This document shows, one piece after another, positions 4,998-21,797 of a stretch of 64,000 bases of DNA. The notes under the pieces are model-generated. The model searched no databases. It saw only the letters and a list, made by a program, of their open reading frames with translations, and was not told the DNA's origin. The DNA comes from Anaerolineae bacterium (GTDB lineage: Bacteria > Chloroflexota > Anaerolineae > Aggregatilineales > J027). The stretch is taken from the NCBI GenBank assembly GCA_034437655.1, contig DAOTTU010000001.1, forward strand, positions 1,017 through 65,016. Direction: 5' to 3'. Both the position numbers and the translations under genes were made by a program. Positions within the stretch are counted from its first letter, which is position 1; each line of letters begins with the position of its first letter.

Positions 4998-5866
4998 TAG
5001 ACAGGCTCTTTCAATGCCTCTGCTGAAGCCGTTTCGACTGGCTTCGTTTCAAAATGGGCAGATGGTGGTCTGGATTCATCATCAAGGGCATTATTGTGGT
5101 GCAGCACAATTTCCCATAAGCGGTCAGGAAGCGGCAACATCAGCACCCAGTGTTCAAGCAACCCAAGCCCGATCATGGTCGCCACCAGGAAGTAGCCGGC
5201 AGCTTCAGCGGTATCGGTGATGCGCAACGACGCCTCAAAAAACAGAATGACCACCGCTATCGTTGACCATGCCACTGACATTGGGAACAGCACATTGTTT
5301 GACTGCTTGCCGAGCAACTTGCCAATGTACTGCATTTTGGCGGGCAGCAGCTCAATACGAAAGTTACGGACCCCCATAAACACATTCAGTTTGGCACTGC
5401 TATGCATGACTAACAGCGCTAAATACATCCACAGCGCCCATTGGTTGGGGGAGTCCCATGTCAACGCCGCCAGCACCACCGCACCGACCACCACCAGCAC
5501 CTCGTGATAAATACTGAAGCGCAAGGCTGCATTAAAGCGGGTGAGCAAGTCTTGGCCGGCAGCATGTGCGGTGCGCCCCGCGAGGTTATCGTCGGGCCCG
5601 GTGACAAAGCCGAGATAGTACCCGGCTACCTGCCAGCCCCACAGCGTCACGCCACATGTCACCGCGAGGTATACATCAATCGGTTGCATACTGTCGCGGG
5701 TTAGCACCACCCCCCCTATTGCCAGGGGGAGCAGCAATGTACCGAACAGAAATCCACGCCGCATGACCTGCACAGAACGCCCATATAGCGCCATAACAAT
5801 CCCTGTCGAAAACCACCACAGGAACACGGCATAGGTGATCGGCAGCAGCGCGTTAAGCACAGACAT
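4997..5866 (-). CDS. puhE: Photosynthetic complex assembly protein PuhE (DUF3623 family)
   Basis: 289-aa polytopic membrane protein with a WWFSTG motif near the N-terminus. It sits in a bch/puf context. PuhE homologues are known from purple bacteria and Chloroflexus. Confidence 0.7.
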   Translation of the reverse strand: MSVLNALLPITYAVFLWWFSTGIVMALYGRSVQVMRRGFLFGTLLLPLAIGGVVLTRDSMQPIDVYLAVTCGVTLWGWQVAGYYLGFVTGPDDNLAGRTAHAAGQDLLTRFNAALRFSIYHEVLVVVGAVVLAALTWDSPNQWALWMYLALLVMHSSAKLNVFMGVRNFRIELLPAKMQYIGKLLGKQSNNVLFPMSVAWSTIAVVILFFEASLRITDTAEAAGYFLVATMIGLGLLEHWVLMLPLPDRLWEIVLHHNNALDDESRPPSAHFETKPVETASAEALKEPV

Positions 5867-5870
5867 CGGT

Positions 5871-7073: not shown

Positions 7074-7114
7074 GTCTAAAGACTACCTTTCACAAACAGT
7101 TTCAGTGTAGACAG

Positions 7115-8035
7115 CTACAGCCCACGAATACCCACAGCCGTAAAGATCATGCCCCATACAAAGAAGGTGACACCGATCGCGCTGAATTTGAGGTAATTTT
7201 CCATGGGTTGCTGTACAAAACGACGTTGAAGGGGCAATTGCACCAGCATGACGCCAACGATGACAATTGCAAATAATAGTTCACCCCACAGCAAGAAAGC
7301 GGCAATAACGCCAATTTGGGACAGGTTCATCGTAAGGACAATGAGCCAGGCGGCGCGCTGCGGGCCTAACAAAACCGGGATCGTGCGGATACCACCGCGC
7401 TTATCCCCGTCGATACTCTTATAATCATTAATACTCATAATCCCATGCGTGCCGAAGGAATACAGCAACGCCATGAGAACAGTTGCTTCAGTAAGTTGAC
7501 CGAAGGCAAGGTGTCCAGCAATCCAGGCCAGACCTTCGTAAGAAACAGCAACAAGGCTATTACCCACCCACCCGTTGCGCTTGGCACGGAATGGTGGTGC
7601 GCTGTAGGCGTATGCCAGGAACATGCCCAGCGTGACGGCCGTCAGCACTTCAAGTCCAAGGTACAGCGCCATGCTGACACCGAGGAAAGTAAGTACGGCA
7701 ATCGTCAACATCACCTGTGAAATAGAAACCAGACCGGCTGGAATAAGTCGATTGGGTTCGTTGACAGCATCAATCTCACGATCGAAGTAGTCATTCATTA
7801 CCTGGGAAAGCCCACATAGTATCGGGCCGGCCATGATGACCCCTAGCAGCAATCGTCCGGCATTTGAAACATCCCAGAGCGTCGCACCACTAGCGATTGC
7901 GCCACAAAGAAACGCCCACATAGGTGCAAACCATGTGATTGGCTTCATCAACACGATCGAACGTGCCAGCAGCGCCGGGCGCTCTGGAGGGATCGAAACG
8001 TTTTTCATTGATTGCAGCGGTATGTTCATGTACAC
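7115..8035 (-). CDS. bchG: Bacteriochlorophyll a synthase (UbiA prenyltransferase family)
   Basis: UbiA motif NDYFDREIDAVNEPNRLIPAG and a polytopic membrane profile. The track start at 8035 is GTG; an in-frame ATG at 8029 is an alternative. Confidence 0.85.
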   Translation of the reverse strand: MYMNIPLQSMKNVSIPPERPALLARSIVLMKPITWFAPMWAFLCGAIASGATLWDVSNAGRLLLGVIMAGPILCGLSQVMNDYFDREIDAVNEPNRLIPAGLVSISQVMLTIAVLTFLGVSMALYLGLEVLTAVTLGMFLAYAYSAPPFRAKRNGWVGNSLVAVSYEGLAWIAGHLAFGQLTEATVLMALLYSFGTHGIMSINDYKSIDGDKRGGIRTIPVLLGPQRAAWLIVLTMNLSQIGVIAAFLLWGELLFAIVIVGVMLVQLPLQRRFVQQPMENYLKFSAIGVTFFVWGMIFTAVGIRGL

Positions 8036-8139
8036 GTTAGATCCAATCGTTGATACGGGTTATGAACCGTAAAACTCTCGTGCAAAAATAAGCGAGCAAG
8101 CCAGAAACAAAGACCCTGGCCTGCCCAAGACGCAAGCGA

Positions 8140-9288
8140 CTATCCGAGAATGTCTTCGGTCTCGGCTTCTGCTTCTTCCATATCGTCTGCCGATGCGTCC
8201 GCATCCATGTCAGCATCTGCATCCATGGCGTCGTCGTTCATCTCAGTTTCGGCAGCCGGGGCGTCGGCGTCTTCCATAGGTGCTGCATTGTCCTCAAGGT
8301 TGAAGCCCGGCAAGTTGGGACCAGCTTCATAGTCAGAGCGAAGTGCTTCTGGCATGATGTCCGCGTTGCGTACGGCCCCACCCGGAATCGGCGCACCGTT
8401 GTGGCACATATTACACGAGGGTTGCTGCCCCCCGAGGATGTCTGCGTAGTTGTTCCAGATATACTGCGTCATTTGCAGCATATTGATGGTGTAGTTCTTG
8501 GCCGGAACGCCTTGATAGTCTGGGAAGTAGCGGGAATTGTGGCAGTGCGTGCAGCCAACACCCAGGCTGGTGTTCATGTGATACATCACGGCCTGGTTGT
8601 ATTGCACTGCATCCAGCGAAATGTCGTTCCGTGCATTGACGTTAAGGATGCCCTGTTCGTCGACGCTATAGACAACTTCGGGGTCCAGCGCGAGCCGCAG
8701 GTCTTCGTTTTCTGGCCAGGTTTGGGGAACCGCTTGCCCATAGTGGCAGGTTGCACAGCTAATTTGTGCGCCATAGGGCTGCTTGGTGTCCACCAGGTCG
8801 GGTAGTTGCGTCAGCCAGTTCTGGTTCAGGTCAGCAACCATGCGCAGATACTCGCGGGCCAGCATCTTGTTAGCCATTGCTTCTTCAGCGCCGGGGCCTT
8901 CCCAAACATCAGCCGCAAAGTTGTCTAACGAGTGACAATAGGTACAGTTGACGCCCATTGCCGCCGTCATGTGGTTGAGCATATAGCCGATGACGCCGGT
9001 TGTACTCAAGCCTTCCAGCACGATGACGTTCTGCGGTTCTGGAAATTCGCCCGCATACTGCCCCATCGCAAGGTATGAATCACCACTGACATATTGGTCA
9101 GCGTTGTTATAGTAGTCCACGTAGATGGCGGAAAGCGCTTCATCTACCTCGATATCAGCCTGTTCTTCATCAGCTTCGACCGTCGTATTGTAGACAAAGG
9201 TGATGACTCCGAACGTTATCAGAACCAGAGCACCTGTCACCAGGACGAAGACGATAAGAAAGGCGATGTAGTTTCTTGATTGATCCAT
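8140..9288 (-). CDS. pufC: Reaction-centre tetrahaem cytochrome c subunit
   Basis: Four CxxCH motifs (CTYCH, CATCH, CTHCH, CNMCH). N-terminal TM anchor (IAFLIVFVLVTGALVLITFGVITFV). GGAGGA RBS. Lies directly downstream of pufLM. Highly acidic C-terminal tail. Confidence 0.85.
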   Translation of the reverse strand: MDQSRNYIAFLIVFVLVTGALVLITFGVITFVYNTTVEADEEQADIEVDEALSAIYVDYYNNADQYVSGDSYLAMGQYAGEFPEPQNVIVLEGLSTTGVIGYMLNHMTAAMGVNCTYCHSLDNFAADVWEGPGAEEAMANKMLAREYLRMVADLNQNWLTQLPDLVDTKQPYGAQISCATCHYGQAVPQTWPENEDLRLALDPEVVYSVDEQGILNVNARNDISLDAVQYNQAVMYHMNTSLGVGCTHCHNSRYFPDYQGVPAKNYTINMLQMTQYIWNNYADILGGQQPSCNMCHNGAPIPGGAVRNADIMPEALRSDYEAGPNLPGFNLEDNAAPMEDADAPAAETEMNDDAMDADADMDADASADDMEEAEAETEDILG

Positions 9289-9344
9289 GTAATTCTCGTC
9301 CTCCGTTACATCGGATTTATTACGATACCGTTACGCGGGAACAG

Positions 9345-11222
9345 CTACGGTAACGGTGCAACAAAACCAGCGTCGACAGCCCAGGCATACCAGTCATTAA
9401 TGACGGTGCCCGTTAGCAACAGGCCGATGCCACCTGTAATCCCGGTGAGTGCGGCAAACCACCATAACCAGTCATGGATCGTCTTCGAGGTCGCCTGGAA
9501 GCCCATGCACCAGCGCCAGTAGAGTTGAGCGCGGTGGGTACCGGGGCCTTCAGCCATCATCTCATCCATTTCTTTGTGAGAACCCCAGCGCGATGTGGCG
9601 ACGATGGTTGCACCATGCATTGCCAGCAGCAGCGTAGAGCCCAACAAGAAGAAAATCGACAGCATGTGGAATGGGTTGTAATAGAAGTTGCCGTATTGAA
9701 CGCTTACATTATTCGTCCACTCAAGAATAGCCCGGAAGCCATGGCCAGAAGCCTGCGCCCAGTTACCAATGAGGATTGGACGAATCAGATAAATAACTAG
9801 ATACAAGAAGATTGCAGCACCAAAGCCCCACGCCAGTTGTGGGCCCATGCCAGCCGAGTTCGCACGACGATAGACGCGCACCAACCATGCCAGCACAGCA
9901 ACATGCAGGAAGCCAGTTGCAAAGATCCATGCACCACCTTCACGCCACGGGGCCAGCTCCAGCCCATATTCGTACCCGGGTGGGTCGAGGGTCAGGTTCC
10001 AGAACTCACGTGCGAAGAGGATCGGGTTGTAGTCCACCGTCCACAGGTAATGCTCAATAATAATGAATGAGGTCAATGCGCCAGCGGCGACTGAGACGAC
10101 ACCTGCAATACCCAGGTAAACCGGCCCAACCTGACCTTCATCAAACAAACGGCGCATCAGCGGTACTTCAATAGGCTGCTTGATCGCTGTGTTTTCCAGG
10201 CCACGACCACCGTATTCATATTCGTCAGGGTCCACTGGCTTACCAAACGCGCGGCTACGCCAGATTACGACACCGATGAGGAACAGGGATGCGGCTGATG
10301 TTGTCTGCCAGAAGGGGAAGTCGTCCCAGAAGTTCCAGAAGCCAACCCAGTCGTCCACGAGGGTACCGGACAGGAAAATACACAGGTTCGAGAACAGCAC
10401 GGAAAGTACACCAACCCAAAATGCAAGGCGGTGAATGCCGATTTCGCCAATACTGTAGCCCAACAAGTTACGCCAGAAGCCGTCTTCGTTGCCTTCTCTC
10501 ATATACGGGCGGTTACGCACACTCAGGATCACTGAGCCGTGCATTGCCAGAATCAAGGTAGAGGCAAACAGCAGCGTAATGCCAATGGCGTGGAACGGAT
10601 TATAGAAGAAATTGTAATATTGGTAGCCAATGTTGGATACCCAGTCGAGGTGGTGCGTAATGCCGAGCGCAAACCCATTGCCCCATGCCCCCATTGCAAC
10701 TGGGCGCAAGAATTGCAGCGTAATCCATGAGGACAATACTGCACCAAAGGCAATCGGTACTTCATAGCTCATGTCGAGCTTACGAGCAATGTCAACTTGC
10801 CGTATCAGCCAACCGACAAAAGCCAGCGTGGCAAAAAACACCGTGAGTTGCCAGAAAAAACCTGGTTCGTTGGGGCCAACTAGGCTAAGCCCAGCGCTAA
10901 TCGGTGGCGGGTCAAGCCGTGCCTGTAGAATGTTGTACTTTCCTTCAATAATCCATGCCTGATACATGTAAAAGATTACGCCAAAGAAAGTACCTAACAG
11001 AGACAAGACACCGAAGGTTCCCAGATAGAAACGACCAATCCAAAAGTCGAAAGGGTCTGCCCCAAAGAGCGCGTGCATCAGGGTTCCGCCAGGTTTTTTA
11101 TAATACTGCTCCATCTCCAGCATGGAGAGGTTTCTGCCTTCTTTTACTTTCTCAAGGACAAGTCGGTGACGCTTTTCTTCCATCGGCTCGTCAGGAATTG
11201 CCCCTGTTAAAATCTTGGCCAT
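9345..11222 (-). CDS. pufLM: Fused reaction-centre L and M subunits (type II RC)
   Basis: A single 625-aa ORF. The L-like half contains THHLDWVSNIGYQYYNFFYNPFH...AMHGS. The M-like half contains AILEWTNNVSVQYGNFYYNPFH...AMHGATI. A fused pufLM gene is known from Roseiflexus. Confidence 0.9.
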   Translation of the reverse strand: MAKILTGAIPDEPMEEKRHRLVLEKVKEGRNLSMLEMEQYYKKPGGTLMHALFGADPFDFWIGRFYLGTFGVLSLLGTFFGVIFYMYQAWIIEGKYNILQARLDPPPISAGLSLVGPNEPGFFWQLTVFFATLAFVGWLIRQVDIARKLDMSYEVPIAFGAVLSSWITLQFLRPVAMGAWGNGFALGITHHLDWVSNIGYQYYNFFYNPFHAIGITLLFASTLILAMHGSVILSVRNRPYMREGNEDGFWRNLLGYSIGEIGIHRLAFWVGVLSVLFSNLCIFLSGTLVDDWVGFWNFWDDFPFWQTTSAASLFLIGVVIWRSRAFGKPVDPDEYEYGGRGLENTAIKQPIEVPLMRRLFDEGQVGPVYLGIAGVVSVAAGALTSFIIIEHYLWTVDYNPILFAREFWNLTLDPPGYEYGLELAPWREGGAWIFATGFLHVAVLAWLVRVYRRANSAGMGPQLAWGFGAAIFLYLVIYLIRPILIGNWAQASGHGFRAILEWTNNVSVQYGNFYYNPFHMLSIFFLLGSTLLLAMHGATIVATSRWGSHKEMDEMMAEGPGTHRAQLYWRWCMGFQATSKTIHDWLWWFAALTGITGGIGLLLTGTVINDWYAWAVDAGFVAPLP

Positions 11223-11258
11223 AGGTCGCCTTACTTTCTATCTGTTTGAGATATGCAA

Positions 11259-11305
11259 GTGTCGGGCGAAACTACGCTTCGACACATCGACAGGTAATTT
11301 CGCCC
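11259..11305 (-). promoter_or_regulatory. Structured intercistronic RNA between pufA and pufLM
   Basis: gggcgaaa (11264-11271) is complementary to tttcgccc (11298-11305). gtgtcg (11259-11264) is complementary to cgacac (11280-11285). The two helices interleave. Confidence 0.4.
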
Positions 11306-11339
11306 TAAAACACCTAACAGTGTCATTCACGACAGACTT

Positions 11340-11504
11340 TTACAGCCAGTTATAGGTTTCGCTGCTCAAGAGGATGAAGTGAATGGTGAGTGCAACCCCG
11401 ATACCCAGCAGGATATAGAGGATCATAACCGTCGTAAATTCAATTGGACGATTCTTCTTGCTCGGAACAATATACTTTTCTTCAATATTCGGTTGGTCGG
11501 CCAT
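11340..11504 (-). CDS. pufA: Light-harvesting complex alpha polypeptide (54 aa; not in the supplied ORF track)
   Basis: Hand translation: MADQPNIEEKYIVPSKKNRPIEFTTVMILYILLGIGVALTIHFILLSSETYNWL. It has one TM helix with the BChl-ligand His in the context ALTIHFILLSS..YNWL, as in the Chloroflexus B806-866 alpha chain. The ATG lies 4 nt after the pufB stop. Confidence 0.8.
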   Translation of the reverse strand: MADQPNIEEKYIVPSKKNRPIEFTTVMILYILLGIGVALTIHFILLSSETYNWL

Positions 11505-11507
11505 CTT

Positions 11508-11726
11508 TTATGCGTCTCCTAACCAGGGTTCCCAAATGTAAACGAGCGTATGTGCGACAATAGCGATGACCATAAAGCCGTAGGTAGCTTTAACGACGAT
11601 GTCGTGCATCAGCCATTCTTCATTGTTGAACAGACCCCTCCAACGATCTGGGACCAGGTCGTTGTCAGCTTGTACCATTTCTTGATACTCTTCTGTCCGG
11701 ATGATTACGTCTCTGCTTTCTGACAT
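11508..11726 (-). CDS. pufB: Light-harvesting complex beta polypeptide
   Basis: The [47 protein letters not shown] segment closely resembles Chloroflexus/Roseiflexus LH beta. GGAGG lies upstream of the ATG at 11726. An internal ATG at 11678 is an alternative start. Confidence 0.85.
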
Positions 11727-11772
11727 GATTGTTGCTTTGCCTCCATATTATGGCAGTTGGACGAACATTAAC

Positions 11773-11802
11773 CTAAAAGGGTGGGGTTGCGGGTCTCCCC
11801 AC
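11773..11802 (-). terminator. Putative intrinsic terminator between the ACIII operon and pufBA
   Basis: On the minus-strand RNA: GTGGGG-AGACCCGCAA-CCCCAC followed by CCUUUUAGG. This is a 6-bp GC-rich stem with a 10-nt loop and a short U-tract. Confidence 0.45.
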
Positions 11803-11845
11803 AACCAGCGCTATCCCTGAGGTTACAAAAGTTAAACCAGCGCTA
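11803..11845. repeat. 11-nt direct repeat aaccagcgcta x2, 32 bp apart, upstream of pufB
   Basis: Exact copies at 11803-11813 and 11835-11845. Each contains the palindrome AGCGCT. Confidence 0.6.
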
Positions 11846-11856
11846 ATTTCAGTCTA

Positions 11857-11889
11857 ACATTTGTGCTATTTACTGAAAGTGACAAATGT
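11857..11889. repeat. 8-bp perfect inverted repeat ACATTTGT-N17-ACAAATGT just after the stop of the 87-aa gene
   Basis: acatttgt at 11857-11864 and acaaatgt at 11882-11889. Confidence 0.6.
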
Positions 11890-11891
11890 CA

Positions 11892-12155
11892 TCATCTCTT
11901 GTTACGGATACTTTTGACAATCTTGTCAACCGCTGGTGCAAAACCGCCTTTGCGCAAACCACTCAAGAAACTGAGCGTATTGGCTGCGGCGTCTTCAAAT
12001 TTGAGTGACACACCATTGAACTGGCAGTCTACGAAAGATGGCAATTCGCCACCGGCATAGACAAGCGCTGAATTTTCGAAGGTGCAGCCCTTGAACTCTA
12101 TGCCGTCTACCGTGACTGCCTTGTTGCTGAAAGTCTGTTTTTCAACCGTGTTCAT
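11892..12155 (-). CDS. Hypothetical 87-aa soluble protein, paralogous to the N-terminal domain of the upstream 220-aa protein
   Basis: Collinear similarity by eye: FSNKAVTVDGIEFKGCTFENSALVYAGGELPSFVDCQFNGVSLKFEDAA..LSFLSGLRKGGF versus FTNTAVEVDGNRFEACVFTNCRLLYRGGELPNFVRCEFEGVNIQLEDGA..LDYLTALYKGGF. Its start overlaps the upstream stop as ATGA. Confidence 0.65.
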   Translation of the reverse strand: MNTVEKQTFSNKAVTVDGIEFKGCTFENSALVYAGGELPSFVDCQFNGVSLKFEDAAANTLSFLSGLRKGGFAPAVDKIVKSIRNKR

Positions 12156-12814
12156 TCCGGGTCTTCTCCTTCAGCTTCGGCAGGTACTGCTTCTAGTGAA
12201 TCGTCGGCGGCGATAATTGACATCGCGTCTTCGATTGTGATACTTCCGATACCATTTGCTTCATCGATCCATTCATAGCTTGCCAGGTTCGCACGTTGTC
12301 CGGCGTCCAGGTCGTCATAAATGACAGCCAGGTCATCTGGTAAAGCTGGCATAAGATCGAGCGGAATTTCTTGTCGAAGTGGGCGGCCTTCTGCGAGAAT
12401 TTCTTCGTCAGGGTAAATAATAAAGCCATACCACAAGCCCGCAATCAGCCCTACAGTCAGCACAATCAGCGTCAAATTGAGTACTGCAAGCTGGCCATAG
12501 TTAGTGCCTGTTGCTTCGGCATTGACGTTGCGGTCATACGCTGGCATTGGTTTCTCGCCGCGTTCAACAACAGTCAATGTCTCTTCAACTTGTTTGGTAA
12601 ACCCACCCTTATAGAGTGCCGTCAGGTAGTCGAGGGTCCGGTAGGCACCGTCCTCAAGCTGGATATTCACGCCTTCAAATTCACACCGCACAAAGTTGGG
12701 CAACTCACCACCCCGATAGAGCAGGCGGCAGTTCGTGAAGACACATGCTTCAAAGCGGTTGCCATCAACTTCAACGGCGGTGTTAGTGAAGGACTGGTTC
12801 TGAAATGTTGCCAT
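12152..12814 (-). CDS. Hypothetical single-pass membrane protein encoded at the 3' end of the ACIII operon
   Basis: 220 aa. It has an ~85-aa N-terminal domain shared with the 87-aa protein and one TM helix (LAVLNLTLIVLTVGLIAGLWYGFIIY). An acidic C-terminal domain follows. A GGGAGG RBS lies in the 13-nt gap after the actE stop. Confidence 0.7.
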   Translation of the reverse strand: MATFQNQSFTNTAVEVDGNRFEACVFTNCRLLYRGGELPNFVRCEFEGVNIQLEDGAYRTLDYLTALYKGGFTKQVEETLTVVERGEKPMPAYDRNVNAEATGTNYGQLAVLNLTLIVLTVGLIAGLWYGFIIYPDEEILAEGRPLRQEIPLDLMPALPDDLAVIYDDLDAGQRANLASYEWIDEANGIGSITIEDAMSIIAADDSLEAVPAEAEGEDPE

Positions 12815-12827
12815 CGTATATGCCTCC

Positions 12828-13571
12828 CTATTCGCCTTCGTTGCCCATCATGTCGCCGTCCATTGCCTCGCCACCGTCGGCAGCATCAGCATCCGGCGCA
12901 CCGAAATTGGTCATTTCGGCCGTATCGGCGTCAGTCATGGTTTCACCAGCGGTCACAGCAGACATAAAGCTGCTCTGGACATCGCTCGGTAGGGCTTCGA
13001 TTTCGGCGTATTCGGCCAGTTGCAAAGCACGGATGTAGGCGATCACGGCCCAACGTTCTTCTGGGTCAAGGGTATACGCCTGGTTGTACATTGCCCCGCG
13101 CCCCTGCGTGATAATCAGGTAGAAAACACCAACCGGCGCATTCCGCGAGGATTCGGTGTGCAACGAGGGTGCAACCAACCCTTCCTGGGCAAGAACACCC
13201 TGGCCATAGCCAGCTTCACCATGACACGCTGCGCAAACGCCGTTGTAAAGGCGCTGGCCTTCGTGCAAGACATCTTCTGTGATTTCGATGGGGAAGGTTG
13301 TGGCAAAGGTGCCATCAACGCGCCCTTCGTACAGATGGGTGTCTTCACGTAAGAAGCCAACCGGGACAGCATTTGGGTCCAGCTCGGGGGCACCAACTTC
13401 AAAGTTCGTACTTGGGCCGAAAGGATCTCTGATCTTGGGTTGATCTTTCATGTTGCCAATTTCAGTACAGCCCGTCACCATCAGCAATACGGCTAACATG
13501 ACCAGAACCCAGAACTTCGGCGTTGCCGGAGAGCTACGGGTCACAAACTGTGGAAAGTATTTCTTGTTCAA
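12828..13571 (-). CDS. actE: Alternative Complex III monohaem cytochrome c lipoprotein subunit
   Basis: A single CAACH haem motif and a lipobox-like LLMVTGC after a hydrophobic signal. The TTG start overlaps the actD stop (TTGA). Acidic, Met-rich C-terminal tail. Confidence 0.75.
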   Translation of the reverse strand: MNKKYFPQFVTRSSPATPKFWVLVMLAVLLMVTGCTEIGNMKDQPKIRDPFGPSTNFEVGAPELDPNAVPVGFLREDTHLYEGRVDGTFATTFPIEITEDVLHEGQRLYNGVCAACHGEAGYGQGVLAQEGLVAPSLHTESSRNAPVGVFYLIITQGRGAMYNQAYTLDPEERWAVIAYIRALQLAEYAEIEALPSDVQSSFMSAVTAGETMTDADTAEMTNFGAPDADAADGGEAMDGDMMGNEGE

Positions 13572-14113
13572 CTTTGAACCTCACTCACATTAATCGGTTC
13601 TAGACCCTCCAGGAACGCTTTCGTCGATTGCGGGTCAAATTGCCGATCGGTCGCTTCAATGACGAGGAAAAAGTGGCTGTGTGAGGCCGTGTCGATGTTC
13701 TCGGCATTAAAGATTGGGTGATAGGGTAGCGGCAGGCCGTTTTGGGCGAACATAAACCCGACAGCAACCAACCCGGCGGTCAAAATTCCAAGTTCAAAAA
13801 TCACAGGGATAAACGCAGGGATACTCAATTCAGGGCGGCCACCGACGTTTAGTGCATACACTTCGGTCGAGGTCCATGCCTGGATGATGTAGCCTACGAA
13901 GAATCCAAAGAAGATCGCCGCTGGAACCAGATACGGCAGGAAATTGATACGGTCTTCTAGCACGTCGGCCAGACCTTCGACATGGAAGGGCGTATGTGCC
14001 CGTAGTTTTTGGTAGCCAGCCGCACGTGCTTCAACGGCGGCGTCCATCAAACTTTCCGGATTGTCAAATTCAGCGGTCAAGCCATAGAGTGTGCCATTAC
14101 CATTAGTGCTCAT
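13568..14113 (-). CDS. actD: Alternative Complex III membrane subunit ActD (DUF3341-like)
   Basis: The N-terminus LYGLTAEFDNPESLMDAAVEARAAGY is followed by two TM helices. I prefer the ATG at 14113 (MSTNGNG...), which overlaps the actC end by 11 nt. The track ORF extends to 14155. Confidence 0.75.
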   Translation of the reverse strand: MSTNGNGTLYGLTAEFDNPESLMDAAVEARAAGYQKLRAHTPFHVEGLADVLEDRINFLPYLVPAAIFFGFFVGYIIQAWTSTEVYALNVGGRPELSIPAFIPVIFELGILTAGLVAVGFMFAQNGLPLPYHPIFNAENIDTASHSHFFLVIEATDRQFDPQSTKAFLEGLEPINVSEVQS

Positions 14114-15503
14114 GTCCGTGGGCCTCCTCGGTAGCTTGTGCTTGTGTCTCAGCAATCGGGATCACTGGCACAAAGCGAATGAACAGGAACAGCGGTGTCA
14201 GGAATAGACCAAACGGTGAAATCAGTGTCAGCCAATCCCAGATCCCGAAGGTGAACGGATCCCACATGGTTTCCATGAAGGGGTACGCCAAGCTAACCGG
14301 GACGATCACGAAGCGTTCAAGCCACATGCCCACCAAGACAAAGACCGACACCACCACAATCGTGAGATGATTGGTGCGGAAGCGCCGGAACCAGAATAGC
14401 TGGATCACCGCCGCATTGAAGATAATCATGCCCCAGAAGGCCGGTGCATACGTCCCCAGTGCGCGTTCAACGGTCAGCGCCCACTCATTAACATCGCCAC
14501 TGAACCAGGCGCCGAAGGTTTCAACGAAGTAACCATAGGTCACCAGCAAACCCGTGATGAGCATGAGAATGCCCGCCTTGTTCAAGTGGTCTTCAGTGAT
14601 GAGATTGTGCATCTTAAAGCCTGCACGCAGGATGACCGCGAAGATCATCACCATCGCCATACCAGAGAACACTGCACCTGCGACAAAGAAGGGGGGGAAG
14701 ATCGTATGGTGCCAGCCCGGAAGCTGCGAAATCGCAAAGTCTAGACCGACGATACTGTGAACGGAAACAACCAGCGGGGTTGCCAGCACTGCCAGGAAGA
14801 AAGCCGTCTTGTGCAGACCTTCCCAGTGTTGGGCATCGCCACGCCAGCCCATCGCCGGAATTGCAAACGCCAGCCGTACCCACCTGGACCGCGCACGGTC
14901 CCGCATCGTCGCGAGGTCGGGTACAAGGTCAATGTACCAGAACAGCGCCGAGATGATGCCGTAAGTGCTAATGGCGAACATGTCCCATACGAGCGGGCTG
15001 CGCCACTGTGGGAACAGATACAGCGTGTTGGGATATGGCAAAATGTAGTAGGCAAATTCGATACGCCCGAGGTGGATCAGCGGGAACAAGCCCGCCACTG
15101 CCAGCGCAAAGAGCGTCATTGCTTCAGCAAAACGGCTAAAGGCAACACGCCAGCTTTGCCGCATCAAAAGCAAGAATGCGGAAATGAACGTCCCCGCGTG
15201 ACCGATACCGATCCAGAAGATCAGGTTAACAATTGCCATACCCCAGACAACGGGAATATCAATATTCCAGAGCCCGGTGCCACGAATCGTGACCGATGCA
15301 ATTGTGAAAAAGAAAACCAGCATCAAAATTGAGGAAATCCCGAAGCCAATGAACCACCACAGCGGTGTGCGGCCAAAGATATTCCGTGCAATTTTGTCAG
15401 CAATACTGCCGGGTTCTTCCCAGGTCGGCGGGTCTGGCACGGGGATAATCGCCCGTCGTGTCCGGTTGCTACCTTGCTGTGGTACTGTGTCAAGTGTTGT
15501 CAT
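14103..15503 (-). CDS. actC: Alternative Complex III quinol-interacting membrane subunit (NrfD/PsrC family)
   Basis: 466-aa polytopic membrane protein positioned after the Fe-S/molybdopterin-like subunit, the typical actABC order. Confidence 0.8.
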   Translation of the reverse strand: MTTLDTVPQQGSNRTRRAIIPVPDPPTWEEPGSIADKIARNIFGRTPLWWFIGFGISSILMLVFFFTIASVTIRGTGLWNIDIPVVWGMAIVNLIFWIGIGHAGTFISAFLLLMRQSWRVAFSRFAEAMTLFALAVAGLFPLIHLGRIEFAYYILPYPNTLYLFPQWRSPLVWDMFAISTYGIISALFWYIDLVPDLATMRDRARSRWVRLAFAIPAMGWRGDAQHWEGLHKTAFFLAVLATPLVVSVHSIVGLDFAISQLPGWHHTIFPPFFVAGAVFSGMAMVMIFAVILRAGFKMHNLITEDHLNKAGILMLITGLLVTYGYFVETFGAWFSGDVNEWALTVERALGTYAPAFWGMIIFNAAVIQLFWFRRFRTNHLTIVVVSVFVLVGMWLERFVIVPVSLAYPFMETMWDPFTFGIWDWLTLISPFGLFLTPLFLFIRFVPVIPIAETQAQATEEAHGHEH

Positions 15504-15512
15504 CGCAGTCCC

Positions 15513-18500
15513 CTATTCTCCTTCGCCCTGACCGTGCAGCGCCTCGTTCGGGTTCGACAGGCGTGCCAGGTAGGTCGTACGCGGGCGGGTGCCCAGTTCA
15601 CCAAGCAGCTCGTAGTTGAGTGGTTCTGCACGATGCTGGTTTACCTGAGAGTTTTCGGTATTCAAGTCCCCGAAGGAAATGACCTGTGTCGGGCAAGCCA
15701 CAGCACACGCTGGCTGAATTTCGCCATCAAACACGCGGCGATCTTCGTTCTTAGCGTGGATGCGGGCTGCACTGATGCGTTGAATGCAGTAGGTGCATTT
15801 TTCCATCACACCTTCAGACCGTACGGTGACGTCTGGGTTGCGTTGTTCCTCAAGGATGGTTTCGTCGTCGTCAATCCATTTCAGGAAGTTGAAACGGCGT
15901 ACGTTGTAGGGGCAGTTTGCAGAACAATACCGCGTGCCGATACAACGGTTGTATACCATTGTGTTGAGGCCTTCGGAGTCGTGGACAGTTGCTTCGACCG
16001 GGCAAACGATTTCGCAGGGTGCAGTTTCGCAGTGCATACACGGCACCGGCAAGAACGCCACGTGGGTTTCATCACCTTCAGTCAGGAAGTGACGGTCAAC
16101 ACGAAGCCAGTGCATTTCACGAGCTTTGAGAACCTGTTCCTTACCGACAGTAGGGATTGTGTTTTCTGATTGGCAAGCAATGATACAAGCGTTGCAGCCC
16201 ATGCAGGCTGTCAGATCAAGCGTCATTGCCCAGGCATAGCCTTCTTCGTATTCACGCAAGTCAAACGCAGTCGCCATCGGGACGCTGGTTTCGCCTTCAT
16301 GCGCAAAATTGGGGTTCTGGCGATACTCATTAAGCGTGCCGGTCCGCACGAGCGGTTCCAGGTACCCTTCAAGGTCGTCCAGATCAATTTCGCCACGAAT
16401 GGCTGCCAGTTTATAGCTTTCGTCCAGCGCGTTCAGCGATGCGCCAGCGGCTGTCCACATAGCGGCTGTGGTGCGAATGTCATAGGCGTTGAAGTTACGG
16501 TCATCGTCCACATCAGCGCCACCGCTAGTGCCATACCCTAAGAAGATAGAGACGGTGTTGTCCGCGTGCCCGGGCACTACCCAGACGGGGACTTCCATCG
16601 TGTTGTCGTTAAGTTGAACTTCAACGAGGTCTTCAAAACTGACATCTAGCCGTTCAGCAGTTGCCGGGCTGAGCAATGCCGCTGTGTCCCATGACAATTG
16701 GGTGATGGGTTTGGGCAGTTCTTGCAGCCAGCTATTGTGTGAGAAGCGACCGTCATAGATGTTCGGGTCAGTGCGGAAGACCAGTTCCAGATCATTGGAG
16801 CTAGCAGTAGGTTCGTTGTTCACCTGCGCACCGAAGTCAGCGCGAAGGGCAACCTCTAGTGCTGCATAGGCGCTGTCTGGTGCAAGACCGTCGTGCAAGG
16901 TCCGTCGCCAGTAGGCTTCAAAATCGTCGCCTTCATACAAGTCTTCCCAGAGGGCACGAACAACATCGTAGTCAGAATCATCGTCTTCGAGCAACAAGCC
17001 AAGCATCTGGTTTGCAGAACGCACGGTGTCGTACAGCGGGCCGATTGGTGGTTGAACCACACTCAAAGACCCGTCATAGGCGCGGCCATCGCTCCACTCT
17101 TCAATGAAGTGTGTTTGCGGAATGTGCCATTCGCACTGGCGTGAGGTTTCGTCGTTATACAGTGACAAATGCACCGTGAACGGCACCTCGGCAAGCAAGT
17201 CTGCAAACGGTACGTCAGCAGGTGCGTTATAGACCGGGTTACCACCGAGGATAAAGACAGCTTCAACCTGGCGGGCCGTAATGTCATCGACCAATGCGGT
17301 GATTTGTTCAGTATAAGAAACCGGGTTTGCTTCAACAGGCGCGGTGTAGTAAACCGTATTGCCAACGTTCCCCAGAGCAGCGTTAATGGCATGAACAAGC
17401 GCGTGTACGACTGGTGGTTGTTCGTCACCAGCGACAACGATGCTCGCGCCTTCGTTTTGCTCTAAGTCTTCAAGCAATGCATTGAACCAGGCTGCATCCC
17501 ATGCGTCAGAGGTCACACGGCCACTGACATCAACACCCAGTTCGGACGCAATGGCCCGGGCGAGTGCTTCAACGTCACTGGGGCTGAGTGCCAGACGGTG
17601 GTCTGCCATTGTCCCGGTTACTGAGGGCGTGCTTTCAGCCACATACAGGCGGTTCATTTCGGCCGTATCGGGGTCAGCACCAAGCACCTTACGCCGTGCA
17701 GCGAAATCACGCGCATAGCGCAGGCTACCGGGCATTGCGTACATAAAATTCGCGTCTAATGAGACGACGACATTGGCCTGATCAAAGCGATAGACAGTAT
17801 TGACGACCTGGTCAAACGCAAGCTGTGCGCCAGCGATAACGTTATCGCGTGTCACAGGCTCGTACTGATACCACCGCGCACCGGGGTACGCTTCCAGGAC
17901 AGCGTTCAAGCGGCTTGCGATTGTTGGGGAAGAAACGCCTTCAGTCAAAATCGCAATGCGTGAACTTTGCGCGTCAGAAAGCACACTTTCCAGGTCTTGC
18001 AAGAAGTTATCAAATGTATCTGGTTGACGATTGCGCAGTACCCGTGTTTCACGATCAGGGTTATATAGCTCAAGAATCGAGCCCTGCATGTAAGTATTGC
18101 TGCCACCGAGTGCGGCGGGGTGTTCGGGGTTACCGTCTACCCGTGTTGGACGCCCCTGGTGGGTTTCAATGGTGACGCCTGTCGCAAAACCACCGATAGT
18201 CATGGTGGAATTGAAATAAAGCGGAATGCCGGGGACCAGAACCTCTGGCGCGATCACATAAGGAATGATCTCTTCACCGGGTGGTTCGGCAGTACAGGCT
18301 GCACCGAAACCGACAATGGCAAGTGAGCCACCCATCAGCTTCATAAAGGTTCGCCGATCCATGCCATATTGTCGGCGCACGGCAGCTTCACGCGGGCGTT
18401 CGCGCTGAAGCAAGTCGTCAAATTCCTGATCTGACAGGTGTTCTACTGACAGATGCTGGTTTTCAACGCCACGGCCGACAGCATTAGGATCGTAGTGCCG

Positions 18501-18518
18501 ATTACTCTCGTTTGTCAT
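15513..18518 (-). CDS. actB: Alternative Complex III large subunit ActB (molybdopterin-oxidoreductase-like B1 fused to a 4Fe-4S ferredoxin-like B2 domain)
   Basis: Tat-type signal (DRRTFMKLMGGSLAIVGFGAA). C-terminal Cys clusters CMGCNACIIAC, CMHCETAPCEIVCP, CIGTRYCSANCP and CTYC...CAVACP. I prefer the ATG at 18518, preceded by AAAGGA. The track ORF begins at a TTG at 18545. Confidence 0.85.
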   Translation of the reverse strand: MTNESNRHYDPNAVGRGVENQHLSVEHLSDQEFDDLLQRERPREAAVRRQYGMDRRTFMKLMGGSLAIVGFGAACTAEPPGEEIIPYVIAPEVLVPGIPLYFNSTMTIGGFATGVTIETHQGRPTRVDGNPEHPAALGGSNTYMQGSILELYNPDRETRVLRNRQPDTFDNFLQDLESVLSDAQSSRIAILTEGVSSPTIASRLNAVLEAYPGARWYQYEPVTRDNVIAGAQLAFDQVVNTVYRFDQANVVVSLDANFMYAMPGSLRYARDFAARRKVLGADPDTAEMNRLYVAESTPSVTGTMADHRLALSPSDVEALARAIASELGVDVSGRVTSDAWDAAWFNALLEDLEQNEGASIVVAGDEQPPVVHALVHAINAALGNVGNTVYYTAPVEANPVSYTEQITALVDDITARQVEAVFILGGNPVYNAPADVPFADLLAEVPFTVHLSLYNDETSRQCEWHIPQTHFIEEWSDGRAYDGSLSVVQPPIGPLYDTVRSANQMLGLLLEDDDSDYDVVRALWEDLYEGDDFEAYWRRTLHDGLAPDSAYAALEVALRADFGAQVNNEPTASSNDLELVFRTDPNIYDGRFSHNSWLQELPKPITQLSWDTAALLSPATAERLDVSFEDLVEVQLNDNTMEVPVWVVPGHADNTVSIFLGYGTSGGADVDDDRNFNAYDIRTTAAMWTAAGASLNALDESYKLAAIRGEIDLDDLEGYLEPLVRTGTLNEYRQNPNFAHEGETSVPMATAFDLREYEEGYAWAMTLDLTACMGCNACIIACQSENTIPTVGKEQVLKAREMHWLRVDRHFLTEGDETHVAFLPVPCMHCETAPCEIVCPVEATVHDSEGLNTMVYNRCIGTRYCSANCPYNVRRFNFLKWIDDDETILEEQRNPDVTVRSEGVMEKCTYCIQRISAARIHAKNEDRRVFDGEIQPACAVACPTQVISFGDLNTENSQVNQHRAEPLNYELLGELGTRPRTTYLARLSNPNEALHGQGEGE

Positions 18519-18532
18519 AACTTGATCCTTTT

Positions 18533-19222
18533 CTAACGGTGACAAATCCAGCAGCCATCAAGACGATCAACGTTAATGTTCTGTTCTTCGACGAGTTGCA
18601 AGCCAAATTCTTCCTGGTTTGCGGGCGGTTCGTAATCGAAGTTGTAAACCTCCGACACGGGACGAATAAACTGCTCCGGTGCCCAGTGGCAGTCCAAGCA
18701 CCACGACATGGTCATATTTTCTGCCTGCCACACCAACGGCATTTCGTTCACCGGGCCATGACAAGTTTCGCAAGCGAAGCCCACATTTACATGTGCGCTA
18801 TGGTTGAAATACACGTGGCCTGCAAGGTCATGCACTCGGTTCCATTCCAACCGTTCGCCCGTTTCCAAGTAGCTTGTACGCACGGGTTCCAGCAGTTCGC
18901 TGTAGGTTGCAATCTGCGAATGGCAGGTCATGCAAGTGTGTGTATGTGGAATACCACCATACGGTCCTTGTTCGGCCGATTTGTGGCAATAGATACATTC
19001 GATGTTCAGAACGTCGCTATGCAACTCATGGCTAAAACGAACCGGTTGTTCGATCGCGATACCAACGGGTGCTCTGGTATATGGTGAGCGGTTTTGCACC
19101 AGTAGTAGTGCAACGCCGACCACAACCACCAGCAGCCCCCCCAGCAAACTCAGTCGAGCGATGGTGTTGGCAGAGGGATTGAATAGTTGTGACATGTCAC
19201 CCCAATCTAGCTCAGTAGACAA
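18533..19222 (-). CDS. actA: Alternative Complex III pentahaem cytochrome c subunit
   Basis: Five CxxCH motifs (CIYCH, CMTCH, CETCH, CLDCH, CWICH) and an N-terminal TM anchor. It is the first gene of the operon. Confidence 0.85.
   Translation of the reverse strand: MSTELDWGDMSQLFNPSANTIARLSLLGGLLVVVVGVALLLVQNRSPYTRAPVGIAIEQPVRFSHELHSDVLNIECIYCHKSAEQGPYGGIPHTHTCMTCHSQIATYSELLEPVRTSYLETGERLEWNRVHDLAGHVYFNHSAHVNVGFACETCHGPVNEMPLVWQAENMTMSWCLDCHWAPEQFIRPVSEVYNFDYEPPANQEEFGLQLVEEQNINVDRLDGCWICHR

Positions 19223-19978: not shown

Positions 19979-21797
<1,819 letters not shown>

What the first reader, a model, noticed from the sequence alone, without database searches (positions are those of the whole stretch)
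11892..12814. Paralogous pair of unknown proteins (220 aa membrane-anchored, 87 aa soluble) occupying the actF/actG position
The 220-aa ORF starts 13 nt after actE behind a GGGAGG RBS. The 87-aa ORF overlaps its stop (ATGA at 12152-12155).

The 87-aa protein aligns by eye along its whole length with the first ~85 residues of the 220-aa protein. Shared positions include F.N.AV.VDG..F..C.F.N..L.Y.GGELP.FV.C.F.GV....ED.A...L..L..L.KGGF. The alternating pattern is faintly reminiscent of a beta-helix or pentapeptide-like fold.

The larger protein adds one TM helix and an acidic C-terminal domain (...ASYEWIDEANGIGSITIEDAMSIIA...). I cannot assign either protein to a known family from memory. Their position and coupling suggest novel ACIII-associated or RC-ACIII-linking subunits.
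Basis: seen in the sequence. Interest (0 to 1): 0.7.

Follow-up and report, generated by a model that had tools for sequence, protein, structure and literature searches.

The report
ActG subunit fused to mini beta-helix
The two "unknown" genes after actE encode a known small subunit of alternative complex III (ActG) with a tiny pentapeptide-repeat beta-helix domain fused to its front, plus a free-standing copy of that domain; this is a lineage-specific elaboration of a known complex, seen here in an operon that also lacks actF.

Summary
On the minus strand, a 220-aa ORF (12152-12814) follows actE by 13 nt behind a GGGAGG site. An 87-aa ORF (11892-12155) overlaps its stop in ATGA. The two share 46% identity over 84 residues (E 1e-27).

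Neither protein is unassignable.
- **C-terminal half of the 220-aa protein.** The TM helix plus C-terminal domain is homologous to ActG, a solved subunit of Chloroflexus ACIII (hhalign 99.4%, E 3.8e-21). A canonical-ActG HMM hits only this ORF in the window.
- **Shared ~85-aa domain.** It is a divergent mini pentapeptide-repeat beta-helix of about 2.5 coils with two capping helices (AF2 pLDDT 96). It belongs to a broad uncharacterised family (phrog_26297; more than 1000 cluster representatives).

In related uncultured Chloroflexota, fused ActG always comes with the free paralogue, and unfused ActG comes with neither. The pair stays next to actE even where puf genes do not follow.

All these operons lack actF, which is otherwise near-universal in ACIII.

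The most likely reading is a cytoplasmic beta-helix module, possibly a heterodimer, tethered to ACIII through the ActG helix. Topology, pairing and role are inferred, not shown. I rate this a new variant of a known kind, of moderate interest.

The parts
12152..12814 (-). 220-aa gene ('X220'): a mini pentapeptide-repeat domain fused to an ActG-like subunit of alternative complex III
   Evidence: ORF. Twelve close homologues exist, all unnamed. Synteny is conserved after actE. It is under purifying selection.
12560..12814 (-). X220 residues 1-85: mini pentapeptide-repeat-type beta-helix (about 10 pentapeptides, roughly 2.5 coils) plus two helices. It is paralogous to the 87-aa protein.
   Evidence: BLASTP 46%/84 aa, E 1e-27. 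AF2 gives strands every 5 residues, with pLDDT about 84-88 over residues 1-50 and lower in the two helices. phrog_26297 match at E 1.6e-12. The best family-profile hits in the PDB are MfpA, AlbG, Qnr and SV2C.
12398..12505 (-). X220 residues ~104-139: single transmembrane helix, preceded by the conserved juxtamembrane motif G-x-N-Y-x-Q-L
   Evidence: Kyte-Doolittle maximum at 109-127. AF2 helix 104-139 with pLDDT up to 92. G103 is invariant and N105 nearly invariant in the family. This stretch aligns to the TM helix of canonical ActG.
12200..12397 (-). X220 residues 140-205: ActG-type C-terminal domain. It carries a conserved P-L..EIPLD.MPALPD.LA..YD segment followed by the ActG signature L.SY.W[VI]DE..GI..I[PT]I.DA
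   Evidence: The only PDB hit of the C-terminal profile is ActG 8k9e_G, E 0.0034. hhalign against 20 ActG sequences gives 99.4%, E 3.8e-21 over 96 columns. A canonical ActG HMM hits only this ORF among 850 window ORF segments, E 1.4e-5.
12155..12199 (-). X220 residues 206-220: acidic low-complexity tail (…LEAVPAEAEGEDPE)
   Evidence: Read from the translation. Low pLDDT. Orthologues have variable acidic tails.
11892..12155 (-). 87-aa gene ('Y87'): free-standing soluble mini pentapeptide-repeat protein with no signal peptide and no TM helix
   Evidence: ORF. AF2 pLDDT 96, pTM 0.80. Orthologues at 49-84% identity lie immediately after X220-type genes. phrog_26297 match at E 5.7e-14.
12152..12155 (-). 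ATGA stop/start overlap coupling X220 and Y87
   Evidence: Read from the sequence. The corresponding gap in five other loci is 2-20 nt.
12823..12828 (-). GGGAGG ribosome-binding site of X220, 8 nt before the ATG, overlapping the last base of the actE stop codon
   Evidence: Read from the sequence.
12828..19222 (-). actA (18533-19222), actB (15513-18545), actC (14103-15503), actD (13568-14155) and actE (12828-13571). There is no actF.
   Evidence: Pfam ActD and cytochrome c hits. tblastn synteny with canonical operons. An ActF HMM finds only ActC, weakly.
9345..11726 (-). Downstream co-oriented puf genes: pufB (11508-11726), pufA (11340-11504) and fused pufLM (9345-11222)
   Evidence: Pfam LHC and Photo_RC hits. 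Gene calls of the identical JGI contig.

Best explanation
**What the genes encode**
- The 220-aa gene encodes the ActG subunit of this organism's photosynthetic alternative complex III.
- It keeps the ActG core: one transmembrane helix followed by the conserved C-terminal domain with the Y-x-W-[VI]-D-E..G-I..I-P-I..D-A signature.
- About 100 residues have been added at its N-terminus. These form a miniature pentapeptide-repeat-type right-handed beta-helix (about 2.5 coils, capped by two helices), followed by a flexible linker.
- The 87-aa gene is translationally coupled to it and encodes a soluble paralogue of that same domain.

**Inferred mechanism**
- ActG inserts N-in/C-out.
- Its C-terminal domain docks on the periplasmic side of ACIII, as canonical ActG is reported to do as a stabilising subunit.
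- The N-terminal beta-helix and the free 87-aa paralogue both lack a signal peptide, so they lie on the cytoplasmic face.
- There they most likely pair into a small two-beta-helix module tethered to the complex.
- That module would act as a structural or docking element, not a catalytic one.

**Shown versus inferred**
- Shown: paralogy, ActG homology, fold class, strict co-occurrence of the fused and free copies, purifying selection, and linkage to act genes.
- Inferred: topology, heterodimerisation, physical presence in ACIII, and the functional role.
For: **Paralogy.** 46% identity over 84 aa, E 1e-27.

**ActG homology**
- A profile of the C-terminal half hits only ActG (8k9e_G) in the whole PDB, E 0.0034 (full-length profile E 0.025).
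- The weakest database hit, P0166, sits exactly after actF in a canonical actABCDEF-x-SCO1-COX2 operon.
- 80 ActG loci from Chloroflexus, Oscillochloris, Chloroploca, Acidobacteriota and Verrucomicrobia were fetched.
- Full-length ActG sequences taken from 18 of these loci, plus P0165 and P0166, align to the X220 C-terminal profile with hhalign probability 99.4%, E 3.8e-21, over 96 columns including the TM helix.
- Reciprocally, an HMM of 36 canonical ActG sequences finds only X220 among 850 six-frame ORF segments of the window (E 1.4e-5).

**Fold of the shared domain**
- AF2 models Y87 at pLDDT 96 and pTM 0.80. Strands recur every 5 residues and coils every ~20 residues, followed by two helices.
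- The X220 N-domain gives the same pattern.
- The best PDB sequence hits of the family profile are the pentapeptide-repeat proteins MfpA (E 0.002), AlbG, Qnr and SV2C.
- Foldseek hits are almost all pentapeptide-repeat proteins.

**Co-occurrence**
- Fused ActG with an adjacent free paralogue occurs in the window, L001/2, L003, L010/11, L012 and L099/100.
- Unfused ActG-like genes (P0162 in L006-8; P0164 in L097/98) have neither the domain nor the small gene.
- None of the 80 canonical ActG loci contains a Y87-like sequence.

**Linkage to act rather than puf.** In L010/L011, actE-X-Y is followed by a convergent phytoene synthase gene, not puf.

**Selection and coupling.** pN/pS is 0.24-0.55 with saturated synonymous sites. 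The X-Y gap is always 20 nt or less.

**Topology.** K+R counts are higher on the N-side of the TM helix: 58 vs 37 in canonical ActG and 27 vs 16 in the X220 family. The C-side is acidic. Neither the X220 N-terminus nor Y87 has a signal peptide.

**ActG as a genuine ACIII subunit.** See, and the PDB molecule name. That ActG contributes to complex stability is my recollection of the abstract of Xin et al. 2024 (Plant Cell 36:4212). The reference was confirmed, but the text is not held.
Against: - There is no direct evidence that either protein is in the complex.
- I could not run a multimer prediction, and no interface was identified.
- Clade-specific conserved residues are few. Net charges of the two domains show only a weak complementary trend (tree and charges are uninformative on pairing).
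- In a rough NJ tree the two clades are not sisters, so an in-situ duplication is not demonstrated.
- The positive-inside signal is modest. I could not inspect the 8K9E coordinates to confirm the orientation of ActG or whether it contacts ActF, which is absent here.
- Related lineages with unfused ActG also lack actF. The beta-helix pair is therefore not needed for an ActF-less complex, and its selective benefit is unknown.
- The domain scores below Pfam's pentapeptide gathering thresholds (18 vs 27 bits).
- Foldseek E-values are weak (0.0095 or worse, TM 0.46 or lower).
Confidence: 0.6

Rival explanations
1. The two proteins are subunits or assembly partners of the reaction centre-light harvesting complex, or a physical RC-ACIII linker. 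On this reading they are expressed with pufBA-LM-C rather than functioning as part of ACIII proper.
For: - They lie directly upstream of, and co-oriented with, pufB-pufA-pufLM-pufC in the window and most related loci.
- Chloroflexota RCs lack an H subunit (established knowledge). A TM-anchored cytoplasmic domain could in principle cap the RC.
- The scan called no terminator between Y87 and pufB.
Against: - The membrane-anchored protein is a clear ActG homologue, and ActG is resolved in ACIII.
- X-Y are separated from actE by 13 nt but from pufB by 165 nt. That gap contains a 9-bp GC-rich hairpin on the sense strand.
- In L010/L011 the pair follows actE without any puf gene after it.
- Profiles of either protein hit no RC-LH chain in the PDB.
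Confidence: 0.12
2. X220 is the ActG subunit, but Y87 is not a stable partner. It would be a soluble cytoplasmic factor that acts transiently or on another target, for example an assembly or regulatory protein that competes with or mimics the tethered domain.
For: - The domain family is overwhelmingly free-standing ~90-aa proteins in unrelated contexts. Examples are Deinococcus koreensis next to a pullulanase and a methyltransferase, and one phage.
- The AF2 monomer is very confident on its own (pTM 0.80), so folding does not require a partner.
- No specific interface residues emerged.
Against: - Strict co-occurrence of the free copy with the fused copy, and absence of both together.
- Translational coupling is conserved in all loci. 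This pattern is typical of stoichiometric partners.
Confidence: 0.2
3. The beta-helix genes are a fortuitous insertion of a promiscuous small orphan gene, possibly prophage-derived, into the operon. One copy happened to fuse to actG, and neither has an ACIII-specific function.
For: The domain matches a PHROG of unknown function. It is scattered across bacteria and in giant multi-repeat proteins. X-N and Y clades are not resolved as sisters.
Against: - Both copies are retained with intact frames, tight spacing and strong purifying selection across lineages. X220 identity in those lineages falls to ~40%.
- The family-core residues are conserved in both copies.
Confidence: 0.05

Closest known systems
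ActG of alternative complex III (Chloroflexus aurantiacus Caur_0627; PDB 8K9E/8K9F/8X2J/9ILT chain G)
   Same: - It occupies the last position of the act operon.
- It has a single TM helix followed by a C-terminal domain ending in the signature L-x-S-Y-G-[WY]-x-D/E-x-x-G-x-V-H-I-P-I-D-R-A-M-D-L.
- Profile-profile match is 99.4% over 96 columns.
- Reciprocal HMM hits agree.
   Different: - Canonical ActG is ~100-175 aa with only a short N-terminal tail and always follows actF.
- Here an ~85-aa beta-helix domain plus linker precedes the TM helix.
- An extra conserved P-L..EIPLD.MPALPD.LA..YD segment and an acidic tail are present.
- The gene follows actE directly because actF is missing.
Pentapeptide-repeat proteins (MfpA, Qnr, AlbG/McbG, cyanobacterial Rfr proteins, SV2 luminal domain; Pfam Pentapeptide clan)
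   Same: - 5-residue periodicity with a central F/L and a small residue (C/S/A) two positions before it.
- About 20 residues per coil in the AF2 model.
- The best PDB sequence and fold hits are all of this class.
   Different: - Only ~10 pentapeptides (2.5 coils) against 20-40 in characterised members.
- Scores fall below the Pfam thresholds.
- A conserved Y-x-G-G-x-L-P bulge and a two-helix C-terminal cap are present.
- There is no evidence for DNA mimicry or gyrase protection, and the genomic context is a membrane redox complex.
phrog_26297 / free-standing ~90-aa mini-PRP family (e.g. Deinococcus koreensis WP_103312491, hypothetical protein)
   Same: It is the same domain end to end: E 5.7e-14 for Y87 and 1.6e-12 for X220. 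The core residues F9, D17, C24, F26, Y33, G35, G36, P39, C44, F46, A57, T60 and G71 are shared.
   Different: Members elsewhere are orphan genes in unrelated neighbourhoods and have no known function. Only in this Chloroflexota lineage is the domain fused to ActG and paired with a coupled free copy.
Lineage-specific accessory ACIII subunits: ActH of Rhodothermus marinus; ActI of Chloroflexus aurantiacus
   Same: The concept is the same. These are small, non-catalytic, taxonomically restricted proteins bound to the conserved ActABCDE(F) core. ActH is proposed to enhance stability (PMC5928083).
   Different: There is no sequence relationship: the ActH and ActI chains are in the PDB and were not hit. 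ActH is a periplasmic helical bundle, whereas the module here is a predicted cytoplasmic beta-helix.

Membership tests
ActG (ACIII subunit G) | Significant sequence or profile similarity to ActG proteins of solved or canonical ACIII operons | tested here: met
   The only PDB hit is ActG 8k9e_G, E 0.0034. hhalign gives 99.4%, E 3.8e-21. A canonical ActG HMM hits only X220 in the window, E 1.4e-5.
ActG (ACIII subunit G) | Single TM helix followed by a C-terminal domain with the conserved ...SYGW.D..G..HIPIDRAM.L motif | tested here: met
   TM helix at 104-133. X220 reads ASYEWIDEANGIGSITIEDAMSII. The family consensus is Y.WVDE..GI..IPI.DA.
ActG (ACIII subunit G) | Gene at the 3' end of the act operon, after actF | tested here: inconclusive
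   It is the last act-linked membrane gene, 13 nt after actE. However, actF, which precedes actG in essentially all canonical loci with enough upstream sequence (at least 76 of 80), is absent here.
ActG (ACIII subunit G) | Small protein (~100-175 aa) with only a short N-terminal tail | tested here: not met
   X220 carries an extra folded ~85-aa N-terminal domain plus linker. Unfused relatives P0162 (152 aa) and P0164 (195 aa) in sister lineages do meet this feature.
ActG (ACIII subunit G) | Physically present in purified ACIII | not testable with these tools
   This needs proteomics or cryo-EM of ACIII from this uncultured lineage.
Pentapeptide-repeat proteins (Pfam PF00805/PF13576/PF13599) | Score above the Pfam gathering threshold | tested here: not met
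   Y87 scores 18.0 bits on Pentapeptide_3 against a cutoff of 27. X220 scores 10.3 bits. Only 8 of 63 family members reach E<0.01.
Pentapeptide-repeat proteins (Pfam PF00805/PF13576/PF13599) | Tandem 5-residue repeats with a central hydrophobic (L/F) residue and a small residue at i-2 | tested here: met
   Read from the Y87 sequence. F21, F26, L31, (G36), F41, F46 and L51 occupy the central position. I19, C24, S29, A34, P39, C44 and V49 occupy i-2. V4, F9 and V14 occupy the central position in the first coil. These positions are the family-core conserved ones.
Pentapeptide-repeat proteins (Pfam PF00805/PF13576/PF13599) | Right-handed quadrilateral beta-helix fold | tested here: inconclusive
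   The AF2 model has three-residue strands every 5 residues and ~20 residues per coil, at pLDDT 96. The top Foldseek hits are PRPs, but with E 0.0095 or worse and TM 0.46 or lower.
phrog_26297 (unknown function) | Significant full-length HMM match | tested here: met
   Y87 E 5.7e-14 (residues 1-79 to profile 1-82 of 93). X220 E 1.6e-12.
ActF (second NrfD-like ACIII subunit), considered because of the 'actF position' | ~400-aa, 10-TM NrfD-like protein | tested here: not met
   X220 has one TM helix. ActF tblastn and an ActF HMM find no ActF in the window; the HMM detects only ActC at E 4.5e-10.
RC-LH small subunits (LH alpha/beta, PufX-like, Roseiflexus X/Y/Z) | Sequence similarity to antenna or RC-associated polypeptides | tested here: not met
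   Neither protein hits Pfam LHC, while the neighbouring pufB does. PDB profile searches at E<=10 return no RC-LH chain.

The most novel reading that the evidence does not exclude
This lineage's ACIII has lost ActF. The ActG-tethered beta-helix, together with its free paralogue, would form a cytoplasmic docking platform. That platform would either couple an ActF-less ACIII physically to the H-subunit-less RC-LH encoded immediately downstream, giving a dedicated cyclic-electron-flow supercomplex, or mediate ACIII dimerisation in place of the ActC/ActF pseudo-dimer. It would be the first pentapeptide-repeat module known to be an integral part of a bioenergetic membrane complex.
Probability: 0.12. 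Interest if true: 0.8.

Novelty: new variant of a known kind. Interest (0 to 1): 0.5.

Why it matters
- **ActG function.** ActG is the least understood ACIII subunit, and it is optional across taxa. A natural ActG variant carrying a folded cytoplasmic domain with a dedicated soluble paralogue offers a handle on what ActG contacts and why it is kept.
- **The domain family.** This is the first functional context for a large, unnamed family of ~90-aa mini pentapeptide-repeat proteins (more than 1000 50%-identity clusters; phrog_26297).
- **ACIII without ActF.** These operons apparently lack actF and are welded to the puf/bch cluster. This bears on whether ActF is needed for ACIII function, since it has no quinol site and a poorly conserved proton path. 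It also bears on how photosynthetic electron-transport modules are packaged and transferred among Chloroflexota.

Tried and rejected
- **Pfam and NCBIfam** on both proteins gave only sub-threshold pentapeptide hits and spurious weak hits such as HalA and DUF5516. PADLOC gave nothing.
- **Genome and metagenome scans** with the X220 or family alignments failed for lack of a sufficiently conserved stretch. The single-protein scan found no relative. I therefore could not name the organism or scan its whole genome for actF.
- **Charge complementarity** between X-N and Y showed only a weak trend: X-N mostly -1 to -10, Y about -2 to +2, with exceptions. I do not use it as evidence.
- **Clade-specific conservation** gave few discriminating positions and no obvious interface.
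- **The NJ tree** of the domain did not resolve whether X-N and Y are sister clades.
- **The Y87-pufB spacer** as a conserved RNA element: overall z-score is -1.3 and there is no sequence conservation. Only a local hairpin is noted.
- **Phage search** found a single phage homologue, a hypothetical protein, which is uninformative.
- **The Chloroflexus ACIII structure paper** (Xin et al. 2024) is not in the library. ActG's orientation and contacts could not be read from it.
- **ActF replacement** was considered and rejected. X220 is not a degenerate ActF, since it has one TM helix and no NrfD similarity. The beta-helix pair does not compensate for ActF loss, because sister lineages lack both ActF and the pair.
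Full report
**1.
All genes concerned are on the minus strand. The order is actA (18533-19222), actB (15513-18545), actC (14103-15503), actD (13568-14155) and actE (12828-13571). A 220-aa ORF (12152-12814, here X220) and an 87-aa ORF (11892-12155, Y87) follow. After them come pufB (11508-11726), pufA (11340-11504), fused pufLM (9345-11222), pufC, bchG and bchP.

X220 starts 13 nt after the actE stop. GGGAGG lies 8 nt before its ATG. The X220 stop and the Y87 start overlap as ATGA at 12152-12155.

BLASTP of Y87 against X220 gives 39/84 identities (46%), ungapped, E 1e-27. X220 has one hydrophobic helix at about residues 104-133 and an acidic tail.

Both ORFs are real genes. Against five orthologous loci, synonymous sites are saturated (pS 0.68-0.87) while pN is 0.18-0.41. 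The X-Y spacing is always between -4 and +20 nt.

**2. The C-terminal half of X220 is ActG.**
- A profile of 18 X220-type proteins hits exactly one sequence in the whole PDB: chain G of the Chloroflexus aurantiacus ACIII structures (8K9E and related), named ActG (E 0.025).
- A profile restricted to the TM helix plus C-terminus improves this to E 0.0034.
- That same profile, searched against 5.8 billion proteins, recovers unfused relatives (P0162-P0164) and two weak hits.
- One of the weak hits, P0166, lies exactly after actF in a canonical actABCDEF-x-SCO1-COX2 operon.
- Using the ActG peptide shown in the PDB alignment, I fetched 80 ActG loci from Chloroflexus, Oscillochloris, Chloroploca, Acidobacteriota, Verrucomicrobia and Binatia and extracted full-length ActG proteins from 42 of them.
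- An alignment of 20 of these ActG sequences matches the X220 C-terminal profile with hhalign probability 99.4%, E 3.8e-21, over 96 columns that include the TM helix.
- In the reverse direction, an HMM of 36 canonical ActG sequences finds only X220 among all 850 six-frame ORF segments of the window (E 1.4e-5).
- The shared signature is ...L-x-S-Y-G/E-W-[VI]-D-E-x-x-G-I/V-x-x-I-P-I-x-[DR]-A-M-x-L.

ActG is an accepted ACIII component. It is Caur_0627 in Chloroflexus, is absent from Roseiflexus, and was detected by mass fingerprinting in Rhodothermus ACIII.

**3. The shared ~85-residue domain is a miniature pentapeptide-repeat-type beta-helix.**
Pfam gives only sub-threshold Pentapeptide_3 hits. 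An exhaustive phmmer search with Y87 finds 1085 cluster representatives at E<=1e-3. Most are free-standing proteins of ~90 aa, and a few are giant proteins with up to 25 copies.

A 63-sequence alignment gives an AF2 model with pLDDT 96 and pTM 0.80. It has nine short strands spaced every five residues, about 20 residues per coil, then two helices. The N-domain of X220 models the same way.

The family profile's best PDB hits are MfpA (E 0.002), AlbG, Qnr and the SV2C luminal domain. Foldseek returns almost only pentapeptide-repeat proteins, but weakly.

The sequence shows the expected periodicity: F/L at the central position and C/S/A two residues earlier. The family core is conserved alike in the X-N clade, the Y clade and the wider family. 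It comprises F9, D17, C24, F26, Y33, G35, G36, P39, C44, F46, A57, T60 and G71.

The domain also matches phrog_26297, of unknown function (E 5.7e-14 and 1.6e-12). Members elsewhere have no functional annotation. One is a Deinococcus koreensis hypothetical protein in an unrelated neighbourhood, and one is in an Elizabethkingia phage.

**4. Comparative anatomy.**
X220-type genes are rare: 12 close homologues, all from metagenomes or MAGs labelled Chloroflexi.

Wherever enough sequence is available, the order is actCDE-X-Y-pufB-pufA-pufLM-pufC-bchG-bchP.... In L003 the small gene was not called, but it is present as an intact 88-aa ORF.

Two sister lineages have an unfused ActG-like gene in the same slot: P0162 (152 aa) and P0164 (195 aa). 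They lack both the beta-helix domain and the small gene. None of the 80 canonical ActG loci contains a Y87-like sequence. The fused domain and the free paralogue are thus gained or lost together.

In L010/L011 (GCA_020063765.1), actE-X-Y is followed by a convergent phytoene synthase gene instead of puf. This ties the pair to act rather than to puf.

A rough NJ tree places X-N domains and Y proteins in two separate old clades but does not resolve them as sisters.

**5. Mechanism.**
*Shown.* X220 is an ActG homologue with an added N-terminal mini-PRP domain. Y87 is a soluble paralogue. The two genes are translationally coupled, co-inherited and under purifying selection.

*Inferred.*
- ActG inserts N-in/C-out. 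K+R residues are enriched on the N-side of the helix, 58 vs 37 in canonical ActG and 27 vs 16 in the X220 family, and the C-side is acidic.
- A 100-residue N-terminal domain without a signal peptide should stay in the cytoplasm, as should Y87.
- The ActG-type C-domain therefore faces the periplasm, where the ActA/B/E subunits lie. The beta-helix of X220 and Y87 lie on the cytoplasmic face.
- Given paralogy, coupling and strict co-occurrence, the simplest model is a pseudo-symmetric pair (heterodimer) tethered to ACIII. It would serve a structural or docking role.
- No redox-cofactor binding motif was apparent in the sequences, so a catalytic role is unlikely.

I could not test the pairing. No multimer tool or model coordinates were available, and the charge and conservation analyses were uninformative.

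**6. The missing actF.**
In essentially all canonical loci with enough upstream sequence (at least 76 of 80) the order is actABCDEFG, and ActF is detected at 31-40% identity. No ActF is detectable in the 64-kb window or in the flanks of related loci, either by tblastn or by an ActF HMM, which finds only ActC weakly.

A survey of NrfD-like subunits counted 521 ActC and 516 ActF sequences (PMC8076601), so ActF is near-universal in ACIII. Whether actF is encoded elsewhere in these genomes could not be tested.

The beta-helix pair cannot simply compensate for ActF, because the unfused sister lineages lack ActF too.

**7. Comparison with what is known, and novelty.**
X220 is a member of the ActG family by sequence, architecture of the conserved half, and operon linkage. 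It departs from the family in three ways: the extra N-terminal domain, an extra conserved periplasmic segment, and the absence of actF upstream.

The added domain works like, and is distantly related to, pentapeptide-repeat proteins, but it fails the Pfam thresholds. It belongs to an unnamed family.

No paper in the library mentions pentapeptide repeats together with ACIII. Lineage-specific accessory subunits of ACIII are already known (ActH; ActI, recalled from Xin et al. 2024, reference confirmed).

I therefore rate this a new variant of a known kind. A specialist would find it moderately interesting, mainly because of the ActF-less act-puf supercluster and the first context for the mini-PRP family.

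**8. Verdict.**
- Observation: confirmed.
The ACIII association is right. 'Unassignable/novel subunits' is wrong for the ActG half. The RC link is untested.
- Confidence by component: ActG homology ~0.9, PRP-type fold ~0.85, cytoplasmic paired module on ACIII ~0.45. Overall 0.6.
- Interest: 0.5.

Noticed in passing
window 12828-19222 (act operon) and the whole 64-kb window; also L001, L003, L006/7, L097, L099: The act operon has no actF, and none is detectable anywhere in the window or in the flanks of related loci. ActF precedes ActG in essentially all canonical loci with enough upstream sequence (at least 76 of 80), and a published survey counts 521 ActC versus 516 ActF. This may be a genuinely ActF-less ACIII, or actF may be encoded elsewhere.
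   Followed up: partly
window ~4143-19222 (-); L001, L003, L006, L099: A conserved, co-oriented photosynthesis supercluster: actABCDE-(ActG-like)-pufB-pufA-fused pufLM-pufC-bchG-bchP-DUF3623-alpha/beta hydrolase, continuing into bchF-bchC-bchX in the related loci. Phototrophy genes are scattered in Chloroflexus. In L003 and L006 the DUF3623 and hydrolase genes are fused into one ~580-595-aa product.
   Followed up: partly
window 11785-11806 (sense = minus strand), in the 165-nt spacer between Y87 and pufB: A 9-bp GC-rich hairpin, GGUUGUGGG-(GAGAC)-CCCGCAACC, followed by CCACCCUUUU. It pairs better on the sense RNA (one G-U) than on the opposite strand. The terminator scan did not call it, and it is not conserved in sequence in four related loci. 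It could be an intercistronic stability or attenuation element.
   Followed up: partly
window 12828-12900 (ActE C-terminus) and 12155-12199 (X220 C-terminus): Both the periplasmic cytochrome ActE and X220 end in acidic low-complexity tails (…DADAADGGEAMDGDMMGNEGE and …AEAEGEDPE). X220 orthologues carry even longer D/E/T-rich tails. This is consistent with a halophilic source or with a shared periplasmic docking role.
   Followed up: no
P0013 (4975 aa), P0023 (2576 aa), P0128 (1896 aa); P0061, P0068, P0130: The mini-PRP domain also occurs 9-25 times in giant proteins. It is also fused to N-terminal zinc-ribbon-like CxxC modules or to TM segments in other bacteria. It is therefore a versatile, uncharacterised module that matches phrog_26297.
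   Followed up: partly
L010/L011 (GCA_020063765.1, GCA_020064125.1) 567-1325; P0012: Some X220 orthologues are called with a ~30-40-residue basic, Ser/Thr/Gly-rich N-terminal extension before the beta-helix. This is probably a mis-called start codon, but I did not check it.
   Followed up: no
window 20013-21797 (+): A fused ATP sulfurylase/APS kinase gene (PUA_2 + ATP-sulfurylase + APS_kinase domains) lies upstream of actA and is divergently oriented to it.
   Followed up: no
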